Positions 1,944 through 9,595 of a stretch of DNA of 64,000 nt are shown one piece after another. The stretch lies in NCBI RefSeq assembly GCF_030013205.1, contig NZ_CP122648.1. One strand, given 5' to 3'. The DNA comes from Escherichia coli (GTDB lineage: Bacteria > Pseudomonadota > Gammaproteobacteria > Enterobacterales > Enterobacteriaceae). Position numbers and translations under genes: made by a program. Positions within the stretch are counted from its first letter, which is position 1. Each line of letters opens with the position of its first letter. Below the pieces are notes generated by a model that made no database searches, had not been told where the DNA came from, and saw nothing but the letters and a program-made list of their open reading frames with translations.

Positions 1944-3035
1944 ATGCGTTTTCTGCGCCGACCAATATCGCTGCGCCAACGGCTGATATTGACCATTGGG
2001 GCCATTTTGTTGGTGTTTGAGCTGATCAGCGTCTTCTGGCTATGGCATGAAAGTACCGAGCAGATTCAGCTGTTTGAGCAGGCGCTACGCGACAATCGCA
2101 ACAACGATCGCCACATCATGCGTGAGATCCGCGAGGCGGTCGCCAGCCTGATCGTCCCCGGCGTCTTTATGGTCAGCCTGACGCTATTTATCTGCTATCA
2201 GGCGGTACGCCGCATCACCCGCCCGCTGGCGGAGCTGCAAAAAGAGCTGGAAGCGCGCACCGCCGACAACTTAACGCCCATTGCCATTCACAGCGCCACC
2301 CTCGAAATCGAAGCGGTGGTTTCGGCGTTAAACGATCTGGTCAGTCGCCTGACCAACACGCTGGATAACGAAAGGTTGTTTACCGCTGACGTCGCGCACG
2401 AACTGCGAACGCCACTGGCGGGGGTGCGTTTGCATCTGGAACTGCTGGCGAAAACGCATCACATTGATGTAGCACCGTTAGTGGCACGGCTTGATCAGAT
2501 GATGGAGAGCGTCTCCCAGCTGCTGCAACTGGCGCGTGCCGGACAGTCATTTTCTTCCGGTAATTATCAACATGTAAAACTGCTGGAAGATGTCATTCTC
2601 CCCTCGTATGACGAACTCAGTACCATGCTCGACCAGCGACAGCAAACCCTGCTATTGCCAGAGAGCGCCGCCGACATCACCGTTCAGGGTGATGCAACCC
2701 TGCTGCGGATGTTATTGCGAAACCTGGTAGAAAACGCCCATCGTTACAGCCCGCAAGGCAGCAACATTATGATTAAGCTGCAAGAAGATGGCGGAGCGGT
2801 CATGGCTGTTGAAGATGAAGGACCGGGTATTGATGAGAGTAAATGCGGGGAGTTGAGTAAAGCATTTGTACGTATGGACAGCCGTTATGGCGGGATTGGT
2901 CTGGGGTTAAGTATTGTCAGCCGCATTACACAGTTGCATCACGGGCAGTTTTTCCTGCAAAACCGGCAAGAGACTTCCGGCACGCGGGCCTGGGTACGGC
3001 TGAAGAAAGATCAGTACGTGGCAAACCAGATATAA
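1944..3035 (+). CDS. basS: Sensor histidine kinase BasS/PmrB
   Basis: ORF ending at TAA 3033-3035 with H-box (ADVAHELRTPLAG) and ATPase motifs; ATG at 1944 gives 363 aa; an upstream in-frame TTG at 1935 is an alternative start. Confidence 0.9.
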   Translation: MRFLRRPISLRQRLILTIGAILLVFELISVFWLWHESTEQIQLFEQALRDNRNNDRHIMREIREAVASLIVPGVFMVSLTLFICYQAVRRITRPLAELQKELEARTADNLTPIAIHSATLEIEAVVSALNDLVSRLTNTLDNERLFTADVAHELRTPLAGVRLHLELLAKTHHIDVAPLVARLDQMMESVSQLLQLARAGQSFSSGNYQHVKLLEDVILPSYDELSTMLDQRQQTLLLPESAADITVQGDATLLRMLLRNLVENAHRYSPQGSNIMIKLQEDGGAVMAVEDEGPGIDESKCGELSKAFVRMDSRYGGIGLGLSIVSRITQLHHGQFFLQNRQETSGTRAWVRLKKDQYVANQI

Positions 3036-3100
3036 AGAAAGCTGCTGACCACCAGCACGCTGAACACGGTAGTTAAACTTTCATAAACACGGTTTTTCAT
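3011..3100 (-). CDS. pmrR: Small membrane protein PmrR (29 aa), antisense-overlapping basS 3' end
   Basis: Reverse complement of 3011-3100 translates MKNRVYESLTTVFSVLVVSSFLYIWFATY*; GGAGG 8 nt upstream of ATG; not in the supplied ORF track (too short); overlaps last 25 nt of basS on opposite strand. Confidence 0.8.
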   Translation of the reverse strand: MKNRVYESLTTVFSVLVVSSFLYIWFATY

Positions 3101-3104
3101 TGCA

Positions 3105-3130
3105 CTCTCCTCCGTTAACCTGGAGGAGAG
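3105..3130 (-). other. Perfect 9-bp-stem hairpin (ctctcctcc-N8-ggaggagag) containing the pmrR Shine-Dalgarno
   Basis: Inverted repeat read directly from sequence; 3' arm on minus strand includes GGAGG located 8 nt before pmrR ATG; no U-tract follows on either strand. Confidence 0.6.
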
Positions 3131-3144
3131 TATGCGCGTCAGAG

Positions 3145-3161
3145 ATTAAGTGAACCTTAAG
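3145..3161 (-). promoter_or_regulatory. PmrA-box-like direct repeat (CTTAAG-N5-CTTAAT on minus strand) upstream of pmrR
   Basis: Hexamer direct repeat separated by 5 bp matches YTTAAK-N5-YTTAAK PmrA/BasR consensus; lies between proP stop and pmrR start. Confidence 0.55.
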
Positions 3162-3170
3162 ACTTCAATT

Positions 3171-3211: not shown

Positions 3212-4714
3212 TTATTCATCAATTCGCGGATGTTGCTGCACCAGGCGAGTACGTTTCGCCTGCAAATCGGCAATCTCGTGGTCAATATCATCGATTTTCT
3301 GCTCGATATTATCGTAATGCTCGACGAGAATTTCCTTCGCTTCCTGTATATCTGACGCCGCCGGTGTCGCACCTTTCAACGGACGATTCGCCGTCTCTTT
3401 CATGGTTACGCCGGTGATTAAACCAACCACCGCCACTACCATCAGGTAATAGGCAGGCATCATCAAATTCTGCGAGCTTTCGACCAGCCAGGCCGCCAGC
3501 GTTGGCGTCAGACCGGCAACCAGCACCGAAATATTAAATGCCGCCGCCAGCGCGCTGTAACGGATATGCGTCGGGAACATCGCTGGCAAGGTAGAGGCCA
3601 TAACGCCCGTAAAGCAGTTAAGGATCACCGCCAGCATCAGTAACCCGGCAAAAATCAGGCCGATGACGTTACTGTTAATCAGAATAAACGCCGGGATCGC
3701 CAACACAAACAGTGCAACACTACCAAGTAGCACAAACGGACGACGGCCAAAACGGTCACTCAGCAAGCCCATCACCGGCTGGACAAACAGCATACCGATC
3801 ATAATGGCGATAATAATCAGCACCCCGTGGTCTTCGGAGTAATGCAGGTTATGCGACAAATAACTCGGCATATAGGTCAGCAACATGTAGTAAGTCACGT
3901 TGGTGGCAATTACCAGACCAATACATGTCAACAGGCTGCGCCAGTATTTAGTGGCAATCTCTTTAAACGAGACTTTCGGGCCATCCTGCAAACCTTCGCG
4001 GTCGCCCTGCTCCAGTTTATCAACATGCTGCTGGAACGCCGGAGTCTCTTCCAGCGCATGGCGCAGGTAAAGCCCGATAATCCCTAACGGCAGAGCAATA
4101 AAGAACGGAATACGCCAGCCCCAGTCGAGGAAGTTCGCTTCGCCGACAATGGTCGAAATTAACACCACCACGCCCGCACCCAGCACAAACCCGGCAATAG
4201 AACCGAAGTCCAGCCAGCTGCCCATAAAGCCACGTTTACGGTCAGGGGAGTATTCCGCAACAAATATCGACGCCCCGGTATATTCACCGCCGACCGAGAA
4301 ACCTTGTGCCATCTTACAGATCAACAGCAGAATCGGTGCCCAAATACCAATCGTGTCGTAGGACGGTATTAAGCCAATACAGAACGTACTGATCGACATA
4401 ATCACAATAGTGATAGCGAGGATCTTCTGGCGACCATATTTATCGCCCAACATACCAAAGAAGAGTCCACCAAGCGGTCGAATCAGAAAGGGAACGGAGA
4501 AAGTGGCAAGTGCAGCAACCATCTGCACGCTGGGGTCAGCCCCCGGGAAAAAAACTTTACCTAATGCGTAAGCAACAAAACCATAAACACCAAAATCGAA
4601 CCATTCCATTGCATTACCCAGTGATGCTGCGGTAATGGCTTTACGCAGTTTACCGTCATCAATAATAGTGACATCACGAAGGGTAATTGGTTTTACTTTT
4701 TTCCTTTTCAGCAT
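3212..4714 (-). CDS. proP: Proline/glycine betaine:H+ symporter ProP (MFS)
   Basis: ORF 3212-4747 minus; protein matches ProP including C-terminal coiled-coil (...DIDHEIADLQAKRTRLVQQHPRIDE); start placed at internal ATG 4714 (MLKRKKVKPITL...) giving 500 aa. Confidence 0.93.
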   Translation of the reverse strand: MLKRKKVKPITLRDVTIIDDGKLRKAITAASLGNAMEWFDFGVYGFVAYALGKVFFPGADPSVQMVAALATFSVPFLIRPLGGLFFGMLGDKYGRQKILAITIVIMSISTFCIGLIPSYDTIGIWAPILLLICKMAQGFSVGGEYTGASIFVAEYSPDRKRGFMGSWLDFGSIAGFVLGAGVVVLISTIVGEANFLDWGWRIPFFIALPLGIIGLYLRHALEETPAFQQHVDKLEQGDREGLQDGPKVSFKEIATKYWRSLLTCIGLVIATNVTYYMLLTYMPSYLSHNLHYSEDHGVLIIIAIMIGMLFVQPVMGLLSDRFGRRPFVLLGSVALFVLAIPAFILINSNVIGLIFAGLLMLAVILNCFTGVMASTLPAMFPTHIRYSALAAAFNISVLVAGLTPTLAAWLVESSQNLMMPAYYLMVVAVVGLITGVTMKETANRPLKGATPAASDIQEAKEILVEHYDNIEQKIDDIDHEIADLQAKRTRLVQQHPRIDE

Positions 4715-4977
4715 AGCTTTCCTCGCAGAGTTGGCCCATTTCCGCAAACGCCAGAAAAATCAGCGCGACGGCCGCAAAAGGGGAGCGGGAATTGCAGGAT
4801 GCAATCTCTGTAACAAGCGTAGCGGGTTTGCTTACACCCTCCGGTTAAGGAATGTACAATCAAACCAGTTGACGCCTGAATTGGGCAGTTAATGACCTTT
4901 TTACCCTACCAGTGTTTAAATTTGTGATCAACTTCACACATGGATTTCGTTTAGGACTCATTGATGTAACTGATTAT

Positions 4978-5856
4978 TTACACCAAATTTACAGAGAAGA
5001 TTTCCTCGACCATTGCCCCCGCCAGACGCTGCGCTGAACAGAGTCGTGGCATCCCCAGCGCGACAGTTTGCCAGCGTTGGGTCACTGACCAGCAAACGGG
5101 TTGTTTATCTGCCGTGGTCCACTTTCCCAGCCAACTTAAAAAATCAGCATGATCCCCGCCCGTCGGAATGGTCGAAGAGGCAAACCACTGATGGTAATAG
5201 TGACGCGTGGTCGGTGCCGCATTGATACTCTCTGCCAGATGTTGTGTCGCTTTCTCGCGCAAATCACCCAGCAACAACGCCACCGCTTGCGGGCTTCCCA
5301 GACGGCAGGCATCGCCAAATGCCCCCCAGCGCAACTCCTCCAGAACGATAAAACAGCGCCCAGGCAACGACCAGGCGTTATACGCCCCAGCACGCCAGCG
5401 GGTAAAAATTTGCTCGCTCTGATCACCTGCCTGCACCAGTAGGCCTCGTTGCGTTAACGCCTTTTCCTTCCAGCGACAACGGGCTGAAAACCACTCATAC
5501 AAGGCGGCAATTTGCTGGGGGAGCTCCGGGAAAGCAGAGTGCTGGCGGTGATCCATTTTTTGCAGCAGCGCCAGATGTTGCGCGATCTGCGTCAGCGCCA
5601 GATGACCGGGATCCAGCATCGACGCCAGTTTTTCCACCAATGTCAGACGCAGGCTAAGCGGCGCATTTAACATCCCGCCGTTCGTCCATGCCTGAAGCTG
5701 CACACGCGCAAGAAGTTCCTGCATCAGTCGTTCACGAAACTGCTGCTGATGGGCTTGTGGATGGCGGGCATCATCGCCCTGCGCCAGATCCACTAAAAAG
5801 CGCGGATGAACCGACTCCAGCACGCGACCGGGGCCGTCCAGTAACGTCTTGATCAA
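4978..5856 (-). CDS. yjcZ: Uncharacterized protein YjcZ (292 aa), co-transcribed downstream of crfC
   Basis: 292-aa ORF; start overlaps crfC stop (ATGA-type coupling at 5853-5856). Confidence 0.85.
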   Translation of the reverse strand: MIKTLLDGPGRVLESVHPRFLVDLAQGDDARHPQAHQQQFRERLMQELLARVQLQAWTNGGMLNAPLSLRLTLVEKLASMLDPGHLALTQIAQHLALLQKMDHRQHSAFPELPQQIAALYEWFSARCRWKEKALTQRGLLVQAGDQSEQIFTRWRAGAYNAWSLPGRCFIVLEELRWGAFGDACRLGSPQAVALLLGDLREKATQHLAESINAAPTTRHYYHQWFASSTIPTGGDHADFLSWLGKWTTADKQPVCWSVTQRWQTVALGMPRLCSAQRLAGAMVEEIFSVNLV

Positions 5857-8081
5857 TATCGTTCTGCCGTGAAAAGTGTTTGAATATCATCGCGTAACAG
5901 CTGAGCGTCGATGTAAATCCAGCTGTGAGTCATCACAGCCTGCTGCAATTGCTGCTGCATCAGCCTGACCACCGATTCATTTTGTTGACGCAGAGCCAGG
6001 CTTTCGCGTAAACGCGTCTGTAATTCCGTCAAACATGAAGCGAACTCAGCGAAAAAAGTATTCATGCCTGCCGTAACAGATTCATCGACCTGCTCTGCCA
6101 AAACTTTAGCCATTTGTTGGCAATAAAGATCGACTTCTGCGCTTAATGCTCGTTGCAACACACTGTAATCAACCGTCTCTGTCGGGGATTTCTCATTTCC
6201 CCGTCCCCAGTCGGGCTGATTCAACCAGCGCGAAAAAGTCTCACGCACAACGCCTAAACGCGTGCTCTGCTCGTCCGTTGCTTCCTGGCGCGAAATGACT
6301 TCACTGAACAGCTGGCGAGTGTTGAAGTGGGGAACTGCGCCGTGAAAAACAGGAAAATGAAACCCAGGACGAAACCCTGACTCGCTCAATTCCATTTTGA
6401 TTTGTTGCTCAATGGGGCGAATAACATCGGTTAACACCCGGCAAAGGGTGGATTCCAGCTCGGCAAAACGCAGCGTAAAGTCGCGACTGATGGTGTTCTG
6501 CGCCGTCTGTAACAGTGTCTCACAGCGGGTACGAATCTCGCTTAACGGCTCCGAATCATCCTGAAACAAGGCGGCAAACTGCGCATTCAGCGCATCTTGC
6601 TGTTGACGCAGAAAGTGGTTGGCGGAGGTCAGGGCCAGCTCGATTTCATGTTTAATCTCGCCGCTCACCTGCGCCTGATTGAGTTGCAATAGCTGCAAAC
6701 TTTCTTCGACCTGATGGATATTTTGCCGCAATTGTTCACAAGCGACGTTTAACCCGTGCGCACGAAAATCCAGGTATTCCCGCGCCTGCTGCGCGTAATT
6801 CAACAGTTTATGCACGGCAGATCGCAGAGCATACAACGAGGCGTTAGCGTAAGCGGCATGAAGCAACGCCTGAATTGGCTGGGCGAACAGCGAATCTTCC
6901 CACAACTGATCGGCAGCATGACGAATATGTTCGAGGTCAGCCAGATCGGCATGACGCCAGCGCCTGCCGAGCGCGGCATGGGCAAAATCTTCCACCCAGC
7001 GTTGTTGCTCTGGCGGTGGTAACTTACCGTTGTTGGCTAACTCATGGCGCGCCCGATTCGCCAGGTAGCCCCACATCGACGACACCGGAAATATCTGCTG
7101 TGGCGTAATACAGCCTTTCATCAGCGTCCCGGAAATCAGTGCCCGCACCTGGTCGGCGTCGTCACTGTTACGATCCTGTTGATCGAACTTATTGACCAGC
7201 ACATACAGCGGCACCGATTGCCCCACCGCCAAAATCGCCTCACGGACCTCTTCATCGGAGATCGATTTCAGTTGCGTATAATCCAGCACCGCCAGTACCG
7301 CCGAGGCGCGTGCCAGCTGCTGGTTAAGCATTTTTTGCAGATGCGGTTGCCCGGCTTCATTTGGCCCGGGGGTATCCAGTAACGTCAATTGACCGGGATA
7401 ACTCTCCAGCCCCGCCAGATGGACAAACTCCACTTCAATCACGGGAATATGCTCAATGGCGGCGTAAGCAGAAAAAGGAAAATCGACGTCCAGCGCCTTC
7501 GCCAGTCGCACCAAATCATTCAAACTTTTCAGACAATGAAAAATAGGCTGGGCACCCAGATAATATTTTTCGAAAGCGACGCCATTTTCGATCCGCTGCA
7601 TAAGCGCACGCATATCTTTATCTATTTCCAGCACATCGGTCAGATGCTTAATATCGCAATCACGCAGGCGCTGTTGTAATTTTTGAATTAAACAATCGAT
7701 TGGCGCGACATGTGAAAAATGCAGTACCGGTTCCTTTTGCCCGGGCGTATGGCGAATAAGCGTCGGCAGCGCAGTCATTGGGCGATTACGATTAGGCAAA
7801 ACCTCCGTACCAACAATGGCATTAATGGTGGTTGATTTCCCTGCTTTCATGGTACCGACAATCGCCAGCACCATTTCCAGTCGGGAAATTTTACGCAACT
7901 CATTATTCAGCATCGCGTGACGTTCGGCGATATTAGGCTGACTCCAGGGTAAAGCCAGTTGTGGCGCATCGTCTCCGGGGACAGAGAGAGGCATTTTTTC
8001 CAGTAACTGCAACTGTTGGCGAGAAAGCTGTAACAGGCGTTCAGCCTCCTGACTTAACTCATACAGGGTCTGTGTGTACAT
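5853..8081 (-). CDS. crfC: Dynamin-like GTPase CrfC (YjdA)
   Basis: ORF 5853-8123 minus; P-loop GTPase motif (GTMKAGKSTTINAIVG); true start taken as ATG at 8079-8081 (MYTQTLYELSQ...) giving 742 aa, preceded by AAGGAAG; the track's further 14 codons upstream run into IS1. Confidence 0.9.
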   Translation of the reverse strand: MYTQTLYELSQEAERLLQLSRQQLQLLEKMPLSVPGDDAPQLALPWSQPNIAERHAMLNNELRKISRLEMVLAIVGTMKAGKSTTINAIVGTEVLPNRNRPMTALPTLIRHTPGQKEPVLHFSHVAPIDCLIQKLQQRLRDCDIKHLTDVLEIDKDMRALMQRIENGVAFEKYYLGAQPIFHCLKSLNDLVRLAKALDVDFPFSAYAAIEHIPVIEVEFVHLAGLESYPGQLTLLDTPGPNEAGQPHLQKMLNQQLARASAVLAVLDYTQLKSISDEEVREAILAVGQSVPLYVLVNKFDQQDRNSDDADQVRALISGTLMKGCITPQQIFPVSSMWGYLANRARHELANNGKLPPPEQQRWVEDFAHAALGRRWRHADLADLEHIRHAADQLWEDSLFAQPIQALLHAAYANASLYALRSAVHKLLNYAQQAREYLDFRAHGLNVACEQLRQNIHQVEESLQLLQLNQAQVSGEIKHEIELALTSANHFLRQQQDALNAQFAALFQDDSEPLSEIRTRCETLLQTAQNTISRDFTLRFAELESTLCRVLTDVIRPIEQQIKMELSESGFRPGFHFPVFHGAVPHFNTRQLFSEVISRQEATDEQSTRLGVVRETFSRWLNQPDWGRGNEKSPTETVDYSVLQRALSAEVDLYCQQMAKVLAEQVDESVTAGMNTFFAEFASCLTELQTRLRESLALRQQNESVVRLMQQQLQQAVMTHSWIYIDAQLLRDDIQTLFTAERY

Positions 8082-8164
8082 AGAAAATTCTTCCTTAAAG
8101 CAAATTTTGGGTGATGCTGCCAACTTACTGATTTAGTGTATGATGGTGTTTTTGAGGTGCTCCA

Positions 8165-8440
8165 GTGGCTTCTGTTTCTATCAGCTGTCCCTCCTGTTCA
8201 GCTACTGACGGGGTGGTGCGTAACGGCAAAAGCACCGCCGGACATCAGCGCTATCTCTGCTCTCACTGCCGTAAAACATGGCAACTACAGTTCACTTACG
8301 CCGCCTCTCAGCCCGGTACGCACCAGAAAATCATTGATATGGCCATGAATGGCGTCGGATGTCGCGCCAGTGCACGCATTATTGGCGTTGGCCTCAACAC
8401 GATTTTCCGCCACTTAAAAAACTCAGGCCGCAGTCGGTAA
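8165..8440 (+). CDS. insA: IS1 InsA (transposition inhibitor / N-terminal part of transposase)
   Basis: 91-aa [46 protein letters not shown]... (zinc finger plus HTH), a few substitutions relative to the K-12 IS1 InsA I recall. Confidence 0.92.
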
Positions 8441-8862
8441 CCTCGCGCATACAACCGGGCAGTGATGTGATTGTCTGCGCTGAAATGGACGAACAGTGGG
8501 GCTACGTCGGTGCTAAATCACGTCAGCGCTGGCTGTTTTACGCGTATGACAGGATGCGGAGGACGGTTGTGGCGCACGTCTTCGGTGAACGCACTCTGGC
8601 CACACTGGAGCGTCTTCTGAGCCTGCTGTCGGCCTTTGAGGTCGTGGTATGGATGACGGATGGCTGGCCGCTGTATGAATCACGCCTGAAGGGAAAGCTG
8701 CACGTTATCAGCAAGCGTTATACTCAGCGCATTGAGCGGCATAACCTGAATCTGAGACAACATCTGGCAAGGCTGGGACGGAAGTCACTGTCGTTCTCAA
8801 AATCGGTGGAGCTGCATGACAAGGTCATCGGGCATTATCTGAACATAAAACACTATCAGTAA
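8359..8862 (+). CDS. insB: IS1 InsB reading frame (expressed as InsAB' transposase by -1 frameshift at A6C motif)
   Basis: 167-aa ORF in -1 frame relative to insA; ...WPQHDF...[44 protein letters not shown]...; slippery TTAAAAAACTC at ~8414-8424 inside overlap. Confidence 0.88.
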
Positions 8863-9259
8863 GTTGGAGTCATTACCCAAATTTTGTTACTTTTATTTAG
8901 CCAGATTGTTTTTGAGTTCTGTTTTCGGCTTTTATAATTACTGCAAGAAATAATTTTATATTTAGAGTGTTGTTTTTTATTAGAATAAATAACGTCTTCC
9001 GATACGTTTAAAACGTCAGAAAGATAAAAATATCATTTGAATTAAAAAAAGAACAAGTAGAGCATTAACCTTATCTTAAATAATAAATGGAGGCAAAAAG
9101 ATTATTTTCTTTTTGCGTTTCCTTTCAAATGAAAACGATCGTCGTCTAAAATCAGCAGTACCCCCGACAAACTCAGGGATTTTGTGTATAATTGCGGCCT
9201 TTTTCGGCAATCTGCCGTTTTTTGGCGCTTTTGCCCTGCTGACTTTTGAGGAAATCCAC

Positions 9260-9595
9260 ATGTCATTACCACACTGCCCAAAATGCAACTCCGAATACAC
9301 CTACGAAGATAACGGCATGTACATCTGCCCGGAATGTGCCTACGAATGGAACGACGCAGAACCTGCACAGGAAAGCGACGAGCTGATCGTTAAAGATGCT
9401 AACGGCAATCTGCTGGCTGACGGCGACAGCGTTACCATCATTAAAGATCTGAAGGTGAAAGGTAGCTCTTCGATGCTGAAAATTGGCACCAAAGTGAAAA
9501 ACATCCGCCTGGTTGAAGGCGACCATAACATCGATTGCAAAATCGACGGTTTTGGTCCGATGAAACTGAAATCTGAGTTTGTGAAAAAGAACTGA
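9260..9595 (+). CDS. yjdM: Zinc-ribbon protein YjdM (PhnA)
   Basis: 111-aa protein [30 protein letters not shown]... with GAGG 10 nt upstream of ATG 9260; track ORF 9113-9595 is a 5' extension. Confidence 0.9.

What the first reader, a model, noticed from the sequence alone, without database searches (positions are those of the whole stretch)
5853..8081. crfC-yjcZ dynamin-like GTPase operon feeding directly into the proP promoter region
crfC (P-loop dynamin-like GTPase) and yjcZ overlap by 4 nt and are followed only 263 bp later, on the same strand, by proP. Combined with the IS1 insertion upstream, any IS-driven read-through could propagate towards proP. YjcZ has no assigned function but is always coupled to the dynamin-like protein.
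Basis: partly seen in the sequence, partly recalled or inferred. Interest (0 to 1): 0.3.

Follow-up and report, generated by a model that had tools for sequence, protein, structure and literature searches.

The report
Known rdcAB operon, IS1 upstream
This is the already characterised E. coli rdcA(crfC/yjdA)-rdcB(yjcZ) dynamin-like GTPase operon next to proP; what is unusual is a lineage-specific IS1 element 28 bp in front of crfC that faces away from it, so it more likely cuts crfC off from its promoter than drives transcription towards proP.

Summary
The sequence observation is correct. All the genes lie on the minus strand: crfC 8081-5853, yjcZ 5856-4978 and proP 4714-3212. crfC and yjcZ share a 4-nt TTGA overlap, and 263 bp separate yjcZ from proP. 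IS1 occupies 8110-8877 with a 9-bp target duplication.

- **YjcZ has a function.** It is RdcB, which with RdcA (CrfC) activates the diguanylate cyclase DgcE.
- **yjcZ has its own promoter.** A sigma-28 promoter inside crfC (6108-6081) drives it.
- **The spacer is the proP promoter region.** It is 100% identical to K-12 and holds proP P1, P2 and a CRP site. K-12 Term-seq shows only a weak 3' end there, and upstream coverage is about 10% of proP coverage.
- **IS1 points the wrong way.** Its transposase promoter reads away from crfC, towards yjdM. No good outward promoter exists. The element splits crfC from its H-NS-repressed, AT-rich promoter region.
- **The insertion is rare.** It occurs in 14 of 5426 complete E. 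coli genomes, all from swine.
- **Coupling holds, adjacency does not.** A crfC homologue directly precedes yjcZ in 80 of 80 Enterobacteriaceae species genomes. Direct proP adjacency is limited to Escherichia and a few genera.

In passing: distant and plasmid-borne YjcZ relatives sit in dynamin-YjcZ-patatin cassettes.

Verdict: ordinary and already known, so low interest.

The parts
5853..8081 (-). crfC / rdcA / yjdA: 742-aa dynamin-like GTPase. The ORF is intact, with 12 aa differences from K-12.
4978..5856 (-). rdcB / yjcZ: 292-aa partner protein (PF13990) with a TTG start. The ORF is intact, with 10 aa differences from K-12.
5853..5856 (-). TTGA overlap of the yjcZ start (TTG) and the crfC stop (TGA). 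A 4-nt overlap is conserved in 74 of 80 related loci.
6081..6108 (-). Sigma-28 (FliA) promoter inside crfC that drives yjcZ: TAAAGTTT-N11-GTCGATGA. It differs from K-12 at one base, which brings the -35 element to consensus.
   Evidence: PMC4183435; bioRxiv 10.1101/188474; genomic SELEX; conservation in related loci
4715..4977 (-). 263-bp yjcZ-proP spacer, which is the proP promoter and leader region. It is 100% identical to K-12.
4923..4938 (-). Consensus CRP site TGTGA-N6-TCACA, about 40 nt after the yjcZ stop and centred about 34.5 bp upstream of the P1 start site.
   Evidence: Read from the sequence; CRP repression of P1 is stated in PMC3808355
4896..4896 (-). proP P1 transcription start (-182 from the ATG).
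   Evidence: PMC3808355 methods, mapped onto the identical sequence
4809..4809 (-). proP P2 (RpoS-dependent) transcription start (-95 from the ATG). The -10-like element CTACGCT lies at 4822-4816.
   Evidence: PMC3808355; sequence
4865..4865 (-). Position equivalent to the weak K-12 Term-seq 3' end at 4330351, -151 from the proP ATG. Intrinsic terminator score 2.5 (threshold 3.0); Rho score 0.50, not significant.
   Evidence: PMC7815308 supplementary file 3
3212..4714 (-). proP. The protein is identical to K-12 ProP.
8082..8109 (-). The only 28 nt of native crfC leader left next to the gene. It keeps the Shine-Dalgarno sequence AAGGAAG.
8110..8877 (+). IS1, 768 bp. Its left inverted repeat (IRL) abuts crfC. 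The insA/insAB' genes and their promoter read on the plus strand, away from crfC.
8101..8109 (.). Left copy of the 9-bp target-site duplication caaattttg. The right copy is at 8878-8886.
8887..9259 (-). Displaced native crfC upstream region. The 401-bp crfC-yjdM intergenic region without IS1 (8082-8109 plus this stretch) has 31.7% G+C and is H-NS-bound in K-12. It holds a sigma-70-like site, TTGAAA-16-AATAAT, at 9128-9101.
   Evidence: PMC6374313

Best explanation
The locus is the well-known E. coli rdcA(crfC/yjdA)-rdcB(yjcZ) operon on the minus strand, lying directly upstream of the osmolyte transporter gene proP.

RdcA is a soluble dynamin-like GTPase. With its tightly coupled partner RdcB it binds the MASE1 domain of the diguanylate cyclase DgcE and activates it. 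This raises c-di-GMP signalling towards CsgD, curli and cellulose. A second proposed role for the same protein is binding the replication clamp (CrfC).

The two genes are translationally linked by a TTGA overlap. rdcB additionally has its own sigma-28 promoter inside crfC.

The 263-bp spacer to proP is not a passive conduit. It is the proP regulatory region, with a CRP site, P1 and P2. proP is transcribed essentially from these promoters.

In this porcine E. coli lineage an IS1 has inserted 28 bp upstream of the crfC ATG, with its transposase reading away from crfC. Inferred, not shown: this separates crfC from its native H-NS-repressed promoter region by 777 bp (IS1 plus one target-repeat copy), most of it IS1 in antisense orientation. 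That most likely lowers RdcA expression, and hence DgcE activation. rdcB expression from the internal sigma-28 promoter and proP expression would be essentially unaffected.
For: Identity of the genes: 100% DNA match to annotated porcine ETEC genomes, the CrfC equivalog at 1591 bits and PF13990 at 476 bits. K-12 annotates the genes as rdcA/rdcB.

Function: PMC6510439 and PMC6374313.

Internal sigma-28 promoter: motif found at 6081-6108. It is published as active and as driving yjcZ. It is conserved at the same position in most related genera, with at least 12 of 16 matches in 63 of 80 loci against 1 of 239 control windows.

proP promoters: the spacer is identical to K-12. P1 is at -182 and P2 at -95. 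The CRP site is visible in the sequence.

Little input from upstream: the Term-seq 3' end at -151 has 49 reads upstream against 508 downstream. proP does not occur in the text or held supplements of the FliA regulon study, although yjcZ falls from 52 to 1 in the fliA deletion strain.

IS1 anatomy and orientation.

Empty site: intact in 5325 of 5426 genomes. The exact junction occurs in 14 genomes, all from swine.

CrfC promoter regulation: H-NS represses crfC and binds its promoter region. SlyA overexpression raises crfC-yjcZ 2.6-fold.
Against: No expression data exist for any strain carrying this insertion, so the effect on crfC is inferred only. The crfC transcription start site is not mapped in anything I could read. 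IS1 is documented to form fusion promoters in some insertions (review PMC9330008). IS insertions in H-NS-silenced regions can also activate genes. The crfC ORF is still intact and the allele is fixed in a geographically spread lineage, which fits neutral or beneficial effects as well as recent silencing. The absence of an intrinsic terminator means some read-through from yjcZ into proP cannot be excluded.
Confidence: 0.8

Rival explanations
1. One reading: transcription starting in IS1 reads out into crfC-yjcZ and continues into proP, coupling osmolyte uptake to the insertion element.
For: The genes are on the same strand. There is no strong intrinsic terminator after yjcZ. The Term-seq 3' end is weak, with an intrinsic score of 2.5.
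Against: The IS1 promoter and transposase genes are on the opposite strand and read towards yjdM. No promoter-like site is found on the minus strand within IS1, and a terminator-like hairpin lies on that strand at 8250-8236. Any such transcript would have to cross 3.1 kb and then the occupied proP promoter region. In K-12, upstream coverage is only about 10% of proP coverage.
Confidence: 0.05
2. IS1 activates crfC-yjcZ. It could do so through a fusion promoter (a -35 element TTGGCA in the IS1 left end plus a flanking -10 element), or by disrupting the H-NS nucleoprotein filament over the AT-rich region. The result would be higher RdcA/RdcB and more DgcE activity.
For: IS1 fusion promoters are documented. 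crfC is H-NS-repressed and the region has 31.7% G+C. At least six other independent same-orientation IS1 insertions lie 40-260 bp upstream of crfC in other lineages.
Against: The best -10 candidates at 17- or 18-nt spacing are CTTTAA and TTTAAG, which lack the -11A and -7T positions (sequence). The start site would fall about 8 nt before the ATG, downstream of the Shine-Dalgarno sequence. The site failed the scan criteria. Relief of H-NS silencing normally requires the promoter to stay attached to the gene, and here it does not.
Confidence: 0.12
3. The insertion is functionally neutral. Enough transcription from the displaced native promoter crosses IS1 in antisense orientation to keep crfC expressed at about normal levels.
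For: The ORFs are intact. The allele persists in 14 genomes from several collections.
Against: The transcript would have to cross 768 nt of untranslated antisense IS1, which contains a terminator-like hairpin. IS1 insertions are classically polar in both orientations; this is from my own knowledge and was not checked here.
Confidence: 0.12

Closest known systems
E. coli K-12 rdcA(crfC/yjdA)-rdcB(yjcZ) operon (Pfiffer et al. 2019, PMC6510439; CrfC work, PMC6374313)
   Same: Same genes, order, overlap, internal sigma-28 promoter, downstream proP and an identical 263-bp spacer. Colinear at 98.7% once IS1 is removed.
   Different: IS1 lies 28 bp upstream of the crfC ATG. There are 12 (CrfC) and 10 (RdcB) amino-acid differences. 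The sigma-28 -35 element is one base closer to consensus.
proP P1/P2 promoter region (Mellies 1995 and Xu & Johnson 1995-97, as summarised in PMC3808355)
   Same: 100% identical sequence. Positions -182 and -95 map to 4896 and 4809.
   Different: Nothing differs in the spacer itself. Only the state of the upstream operon differs.
IS1 insertions that alter neighbouring gene expression (fusion promoters: Prentki 1986, Goussard 1991, Olliver 2005, cited in PMC9330008; IS1 at -107 of flhDC in motile MG1655)
   Same: IS1 sits in an AT-rich regulatory region upstream of a gene.
   Different: Here the element lies between the promoter region and the Shine-Dalgarno sequence rather than upstream of the promoter. 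No adequate flanking -10 element is present.
Dynamin-like defence and secretion systems (Eleos LeoA/LeoBC; Nostoc BDLP, Campylobacter DLP1/2)
   Same: They share the dynamin-type G domain.
   Different: Only weak, partial matches: PADLOC LeoBC E=2e-6 and PDB 2j68 E=2e-6 over about 50 residues. They have no YjcZ partner. RdcA is reported to be soluble and to signal to DgcE.
Plasmid- and metagenome-borne dynamin-YjcZ-patatin cassettes (found here; I found no published description)
   Same: A paralogous dynamin (35% identity over the full length) and a YjcZ-like protein (31% identity), with the same order and overlapping boundaries.
   Different: Those cassettes carry a third gene, a patatin-like phospholipase, and are flanked by IS elements on plasmids. 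The chromosomal operon in this window has no patatin gene.

Membership tests
rdcA-rdcB (crfC-yjcZ) operon | RdcA/CrfC orthologue: full-length match to the curated equivalog model | tested here: met
   NCBIfam NF007368 at 1591 bits against a cutoff of 1146, covering 1-742 of 742
rdcA-rdcB (crfC-yjcZ) operon | Dynamin-type G domain with the catalytic residues K82 and T103 used in the published mutants | tested here: met
   GTMKAGKS 76-83, T103, DTPG 236, NKFD 297. Mutants are described in PMC6510439.
rdcA-rdcB (crfC-yjcZ) operon | YjcZ/RdcB family protein encoded immediately downstream with overlapping boundaries | tested here: met
   PF13990 at 476 bits. TTGA overlap. Arrangement found in 80 of 80 related loci.
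rdcA-rdcB (crfC-yjcZ) operon | RdcA-RdcB-DgcE interaction and activation of c-di-GMP synthesis | not testable with these tools
   Known for K-12 only. dgcE was not examined in this window.
IS1 family insertion sequence | About 768 bp, terminal inverted repeats, insA/insB' with a programmed frameshift, 9-bp target duplication | tested here: met
   768 bp, IRL and IRR matched, annotation 'programmed frameshift', 9-bp repeat
IS-driven outward or fusion promoter | A -35 element in the IS end plus a correctly spaced functional -10 element in the flank, with a start site upstream of the ribosome-binding site | tested here: not met
   TTGGCA is followed at 17 or 18 nt by CTTTAA or TTTAAG. No minus-strand hit appears in the scan. 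The predicted start falls after the Shine-Dalgarno sequence.
Intrinsic terminator between yjcZ and proP | G+C-rich hairpin followed by a U tract just after the yjcZ stop | tested here: not met
   No site lies between 4978 and 4897. The fold z-score is -0.3. The K-12 Term-seq intrinsic score is 2.5, below the 3.0 threshold.
Polycistronic crfC-yjcZ-proP unit | proP transcription depends substantially on upstream promoters, and the adjacency is conserved | tested here: not met
   Coverage is 49 upstream against 508 downstream. proP has its own P1 and P2. A convergent permease gene separates yjcZ and proP in 51 of 80 loci. This is indirect evidence: no expression data exist for this strain.
Eleos (LeoA/LeoBC) dynamin defence system | Matches to the LeoA and LeoBC models at family level and a two-dynamin gene pair | tested here: not met
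   Only weak partial hits, E=2e-6 and 6e-6. The partner is YjcZ, not a second dynamin.
Dynamin-YjcZ-patatin three-gene cassette | [quoted passage not shown] | tested here: not met
   In the window, yjcZ is followed by a 263-bp spacer and proP. The cassette is seen in L085-L089, L092, L093, L095 and L096.

The most novel reading that the evidence does not exclude
YjcZ/RdcB may be a conserved adaptor module. It would link a membrane- or pole-recruited assembly protein (a dynamin-like GTPase or, in one fusion, the jumbo-phage sensor JukA) to an effector. Its ancestral and mobile form is a three-gene dynamin-YjcZ-patatin cassette, found IS-flanked on IncFIB plasmids of E. coli, Klebsiella and Enterobacter and in diverse metagenomic contigs. 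That cassette would be an undescribed membrane-attack or defence-type system. On this reading the chromosomal Enterobacteriaceae rdcAB operon is a patatin-less derivative re-wired to DgcE. Recurrent IS1 hits at and in crfC, including the one in this window, would then mark natural tuning or loss of that signalling input.
Probability: 0.3. Interest if true: 0.55.

Novelty: already known. Interest (0 to 1): 0.15.

Why it matters
As stated, the finding is textbook E. coli gene order plus a common insertion element, so it changes nothing.

If the inferred silencing of rdcA by IS1 is real, a widespread porcine ETEC / edema-disease lineage would lack the GTPase input to DgcE. That would shift the motility-versus-biofilm decision, which is a modest strain-level point.

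The more useful by-product concerns the YjcZ family. It is not confined to the DgcE regulator. It recurs in mobile dynamin-YjcZ-patatin cassettes and in a JukA fusion. This gives a concrete, testable lead on what the unexplained partner protein does mechanistically.

Tried and rejected
- **Direct evidence for a yjcZ-proP transcript.** The SMRT-Cappable-seq supplements (PMC6131387) contain no yjcZ, yjdA or proP entries. The original proP promoter paper (PMC176566) is not held.
- **FliA regulon supplements.** They contain no proP entry, which is only absence of evidence.
- **ProP activity in flanking-gene knockouts.** The Wood-lab preprint measured ProP activity in yjdA::kan and yjcZ::kan strains, but the numbers are in a figure that is not held.
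- **Rfam.** There is no RNA family in either intergenic region. The only hit is STnc630, downstream of proP.
- **PADLOC.** No model hits YjcZ, and only weak Leo hits fall on CrfC.
- **Solved structures.** No PDB relative of YjcZ was found by sequence.
- **AFDB Foldseek.** The library was unavailable.
- **Phages.** YjcZ-like genes are absent from the phage collection.
- **Literature on the cassette.** A search for a described dynamin-patatin system found nothing relevant.
Full report
**1. What is there**

The window region is E. coli chromosome. It is 100% identical over 8 kb to complete genomes of porcine ETEC and O139:H1 strains such as K_EC180. The annotation of that genome and the ORF list give the same layout, all on the minus strand:
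- proP 3212-4714
- rdcB/yjcZ 4978-5856
- crfC 5853-8081

On the plus strand lie an IS1 transposase (CDS 8165-8862) and then yjdM, yjdN and the phn genes. The finding's coordinates therefore cover crfC only.

- The crfC stop TGA (5855-5853) overlaps the yjcZ start by 4 nt. That start is TTG, not ATG.
- The yjcZ stop (4978) and the proP ATG (4714) are 263 bp apart.
- CrfC has a bona fide dynamin-type G domain: GTMKAGKS 76-83, T103, DTPG 236, NKFD 297.
- CrfC matches the curated CrfC equivalog over its full length, at 1591 bits against a cutoff of 1146.
- YjcZ matches PF13990 at 476 bits.

**2. The IS1**

IS1 is 768 bp, at 8110-8877, with matching terminal inverted repeats. A 9-bp target duplication, caaattttg, lies at 8101-8109 and 8878-8886. 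Deleting IS1 plus one repeat copy gives a gap-free colinear match to K-12 MG1655 at 98.7% over 5424 bp.

The left inverted repeat abuts crfC. Only 28 nt of native leader, including the Shine-Dalgarno sequence AAGGAAG, remain between IS1 and the crfC ATG.

The transposase genes and their promoter (CTGCCA-16-TATGAT at 8117-8144) are on the plus strand. They read away from crfC and towards yjdM. On the minus strand within IS1 the scan finds no promoter-like site. It does find a terminator-like hairpin at 8250-8236.

IS1 can create fusion promoters from a -35 element in its end plus a -10 element in the flank (review PMC9330008). Here the end-proximal TTGGCA is followed at 17 or 18 nt by CTTTAA or TTTAAG, which lack the conserved A at -11 and T at -7. 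A start site there would fall about 8 nt before the ATG, downstream of the Shine-Dalgarno sequence (sequence).

**3. How common is the insertion?**

The uninterrupted crfC-yjdM site is present in 5325 of 5426 complete E. coli genomes. The exact junction is present in 14, all from swine. Another 13 genomes have IS1 in the same orientation at other positions 40-260 bp upstream of crfC. In strain 503829 a second IS1 splits crfC itself.

**4. What the operon is known to do**

- **Function.** yjdA/yjcZ were renamed rdcA/rdcB in 2019. RdcA dimerises, binds RdcB and the MASE1 domain of the diguanylate cyclase DgcE, and activates it in a way that requires GTP hydrolysis. Deleting rdcA or rdcB phenocopies a dgcE deletion for CsgD, curli, cellulose and c-di-GMP (PMC6510439). 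K-12 RefSeq uses these names. The statement that YjcZ has no assigned function is therefore out of date.
- **Second role.** A role as the clamp-binding factor CrfC has also been proposed.
- **Regulation of crfC.** H-NS represses crfC and binds its promoter region (PMC6374313). SlyA overexpression raises crfC-yjcZ 2.6-fold.
- **Separate yjcZ promoter.** yjcZ has its own FliA (sigma-28) promoter inside yjdA. [quoted passage not shown]

I found that promoter at 6108-6081 with one change from K-12, which makes the -35 element consensus (TAAAGTTT). The motif sits 252 nt before the yjcZ start in most related genera. It scores at least 12 of 16 matches in 63 of 80 loci, against 1 of 239 control windows. 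Because it lies in coding sequence, part of this conservation may reflect the protein.

**5. The spacer to proP**

The 263 bp are 100% identical to K-12, and ProP itself is identical, so K-12 data transfer directly. The proP start sites are at -182 (P1) and -95 (P2) from the ATG (PMC3808355). These map to window 4896 and 4809. A consensus CRP site, TGTGA-N6-TCACA (4938-4923), lies only about 40 nt after the yjcZ stop and overlaps the P1 -35 region.

No intrinsic terminator-like site lies between the yjcZ stop and P1. The 3' region of yjcZ folds no better than shuffled sequence, with a z-score of -0.3.

K-12 Term-seq (PMC7815308, supplementary file 3) records one weak 3' end at 4330351, which is -151 from the proP ATG and maps to window 4865:
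- intrinsic terminator score 2.5, below the 3.0 threshold
- Rho score 0.50, not significant
- read coverage of 49 in the 800 nt upstream against 508 in the 800 nt downstream

Read-through from yjcZ therefore cannot be excluded. In LB it can account for at most about a tenth of proP transcription. The rest arises at P1 and P2. proP also does not occur in the text or held supplements of the FliA regulon study.

**6. Conservation**

A scan of one genome per species (100,044 species) with a YjcZ alignment returned 107 confirmed loci. I kept the best 80, essentially all Enterobacteriaceae.
- In 80 of 80 a full-length CrfC homologue ends at the YjcZ start on the same strand. In 74 of 80 the overlap is 4 nt.
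- proP lies within about 400 bp downstream only in three Escherichia species, Trabulsiella, two Superficieibacter and Yokenella.
- In 51 loci the gap is about 1.6-1.9 kb; two more have larger gaps of 1.9 and 2.1 kb. It holds a convergent 336-aa permease gene.
- Seven loci with the full 7-kb flank have no proP at all.

The yjcZ-proP juxtaposition is thus a local feature, not a conserved functional unit.

**7. Most likely mechanism**

Shown: the identity of the genes, their known function, the intact ORFs, the internal sigma-28 promoter, the autonomous proP promoters, and the position and orientation of IS1.

Inferred: IS1 uncouples crfC from its native promoter region. That region has 31.7% G+C and holds a sigma-70-like site at 9128-9101. 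It now lies 777 bp further away, most of it IS1 in antisense orientation. crfC (rdcA) expression is therefore probably reduced. rdcB can still be made from the sigma-28 promoter, and proP is unaffected.

RdcB does not bind DgcE on its own. The expected phenotype is thus a weakened DgcE input.

Alternatives are activation through a poor fusion promoter or H-NS disruption, and a neutral effect. Neither can be excluded without expression data.

**8. By-product: the wider YjcZ family**

A profile search of 1.84 billion representatives finds 301 YjcZ-family representatives, 208 of them at E <= 1e-10. I inspected seven distant ones.
- Five sit in a tight three-gene arrangement: Dynamin_N GTPase (about 800-830 aa), YjcZ, then a patatin-like phospholipase.
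- One of those five is surrounded by further dynamin genes (L092).
- A closer relative has the dynamin gene and YjcZ only.
- One 532-aa protein on a 1.44-Mb contig fuses an N-terminal JukA/DUF3944 domain (PADLOC JukA, E=8e-74) to a C-terminal YjcZ domain. It is followed by a patatin gene and has no dynamin gene beside it.

The same dynamin-RdcB-like-patatin cassette, flanked by IS elements, occurs on plasmids:
- It is found on 45 PLSDB plasmids: E. coli 19, Klebsiella 16, Enterobacter 8. Sixteen are conjugative.
- It occurs on plasmids of 5-6 of the 5426 complete E. coli genomes, and never on a chromosome.
- The plasmid dynamin is 35% identical to CrfC over the full length.
- The plasmid YjcZ-like protein is 31% identical to YjcZ.

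PADLOC has no model for YjcZ, and I found no paper describing the cassette. The JukA preprint mentions JukA fusions to patatin, to a Ras-like GTPase and to an unknown coiled-coil domain.

The YjcZ AlphaFold model is confident and all-helical, but has no specific structural relative.

This suggests, but does not show, that YjcZ is an adaptor between a recruiter and an effector. The chromosomal rdcAB would then be a patatin-less derivative.

**9. Verdict**

The feature is already known and of low interest in itself. The one lead worth following is the dynamin-YjcZ-patatin cassette.

Noticed in passing
L085-L089, L092, L093 (metagenomic contigs); L095 3590-7961 (E. coli plasmid pAW1.7_2); L096 9590-13961 (K. 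pneumoniae IncFIB plasmid): Distant and plasmid-borne YjcZ/RdcB relatives sit in a tight three-gene cassette: dynamin-like GTPase, YjcZ, then a patatin-like phospholipase. On plasmids the cassette is flanked by IS elements. It occurs on 45 PLSDB plasmids, but on plasmids of only 5-6 of 5426 complete E. coli genomes. No PADLOC model hits YjcZ or identifies the cassette as a defence system, and I found no paper describing it.
   Followed up: partly
L090 5001-6599: A 532-aa protein fuses an N-terminal JukA/DUF3944 domain (the jumbo-phage sensor; PADLOC E=8e-74) to a C-terminal YjcZ domain. A patatin gene follows it and no dynamin gene is adjacent. This is an exception to 'YjcZ is always coupled to a dynamin'.
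   Followed up: partly
window 8082-9259; L083, L084 and hits H16-H42: The AT-rich crfC-yjdM intergenic region is hit repeatedly by IS1 in unrelated E. coli lineages. Thirteen further genomes carry same-orientation insertions at at least six other positions, 40-260 bp upstream of crfC. In strain 503829 crfC itself is split by a second IS1.
   Followed up: partly
window 3004-3169 (-): A strong Rfam match to the enterobacterial sRNA STnc630 (181 bits, E=5e-38) lies directly downstream of proP and overlaps the small gene pmrR (3011-3100).
   Followed up: no
L007 7925-8935 (-) and the equivalent position in 51 of the 80 loci L003-L082: In Citrobacter, Enterobacter, Kosakonia and others, a convergent 336-aa membrane permease gene lies between yjcZ and proP. 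From its sequence I think it resembles the 2-keto-3-deoxygluconate permease KdgT, but I did not check this. The direct yjcZ-proP adjacency is therefore specific to Escherichia and a few genera.
   Followed up: partly
window 5257-5259 (YjcZ codon 200): YjcZ residue 200 is Arg in this strain, invariant in the 13-sequence family alignment and nearly invariant in the 24-sequence one. It is Leu in K-12 MG1655, so the laboratory reference carries the unusual residue.
   Followed up: no
window 8110-8877 and 9260-9595: Transcription from the IS1 transposase promoter runs on the plus strand towards yjdM/yjdN. If any IS-driven read-through exists, it would go in that direction, not towards crfC and proP.
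   Followed up: no
L066: A record titled 'Chryseobacterium sp. 18061' carries a typical Enterobacteriaceae crfC-yjcZ-proP locus (ProP 88% identical). This suggests a mislabelled or contaminated assembly.
   Followed up: no
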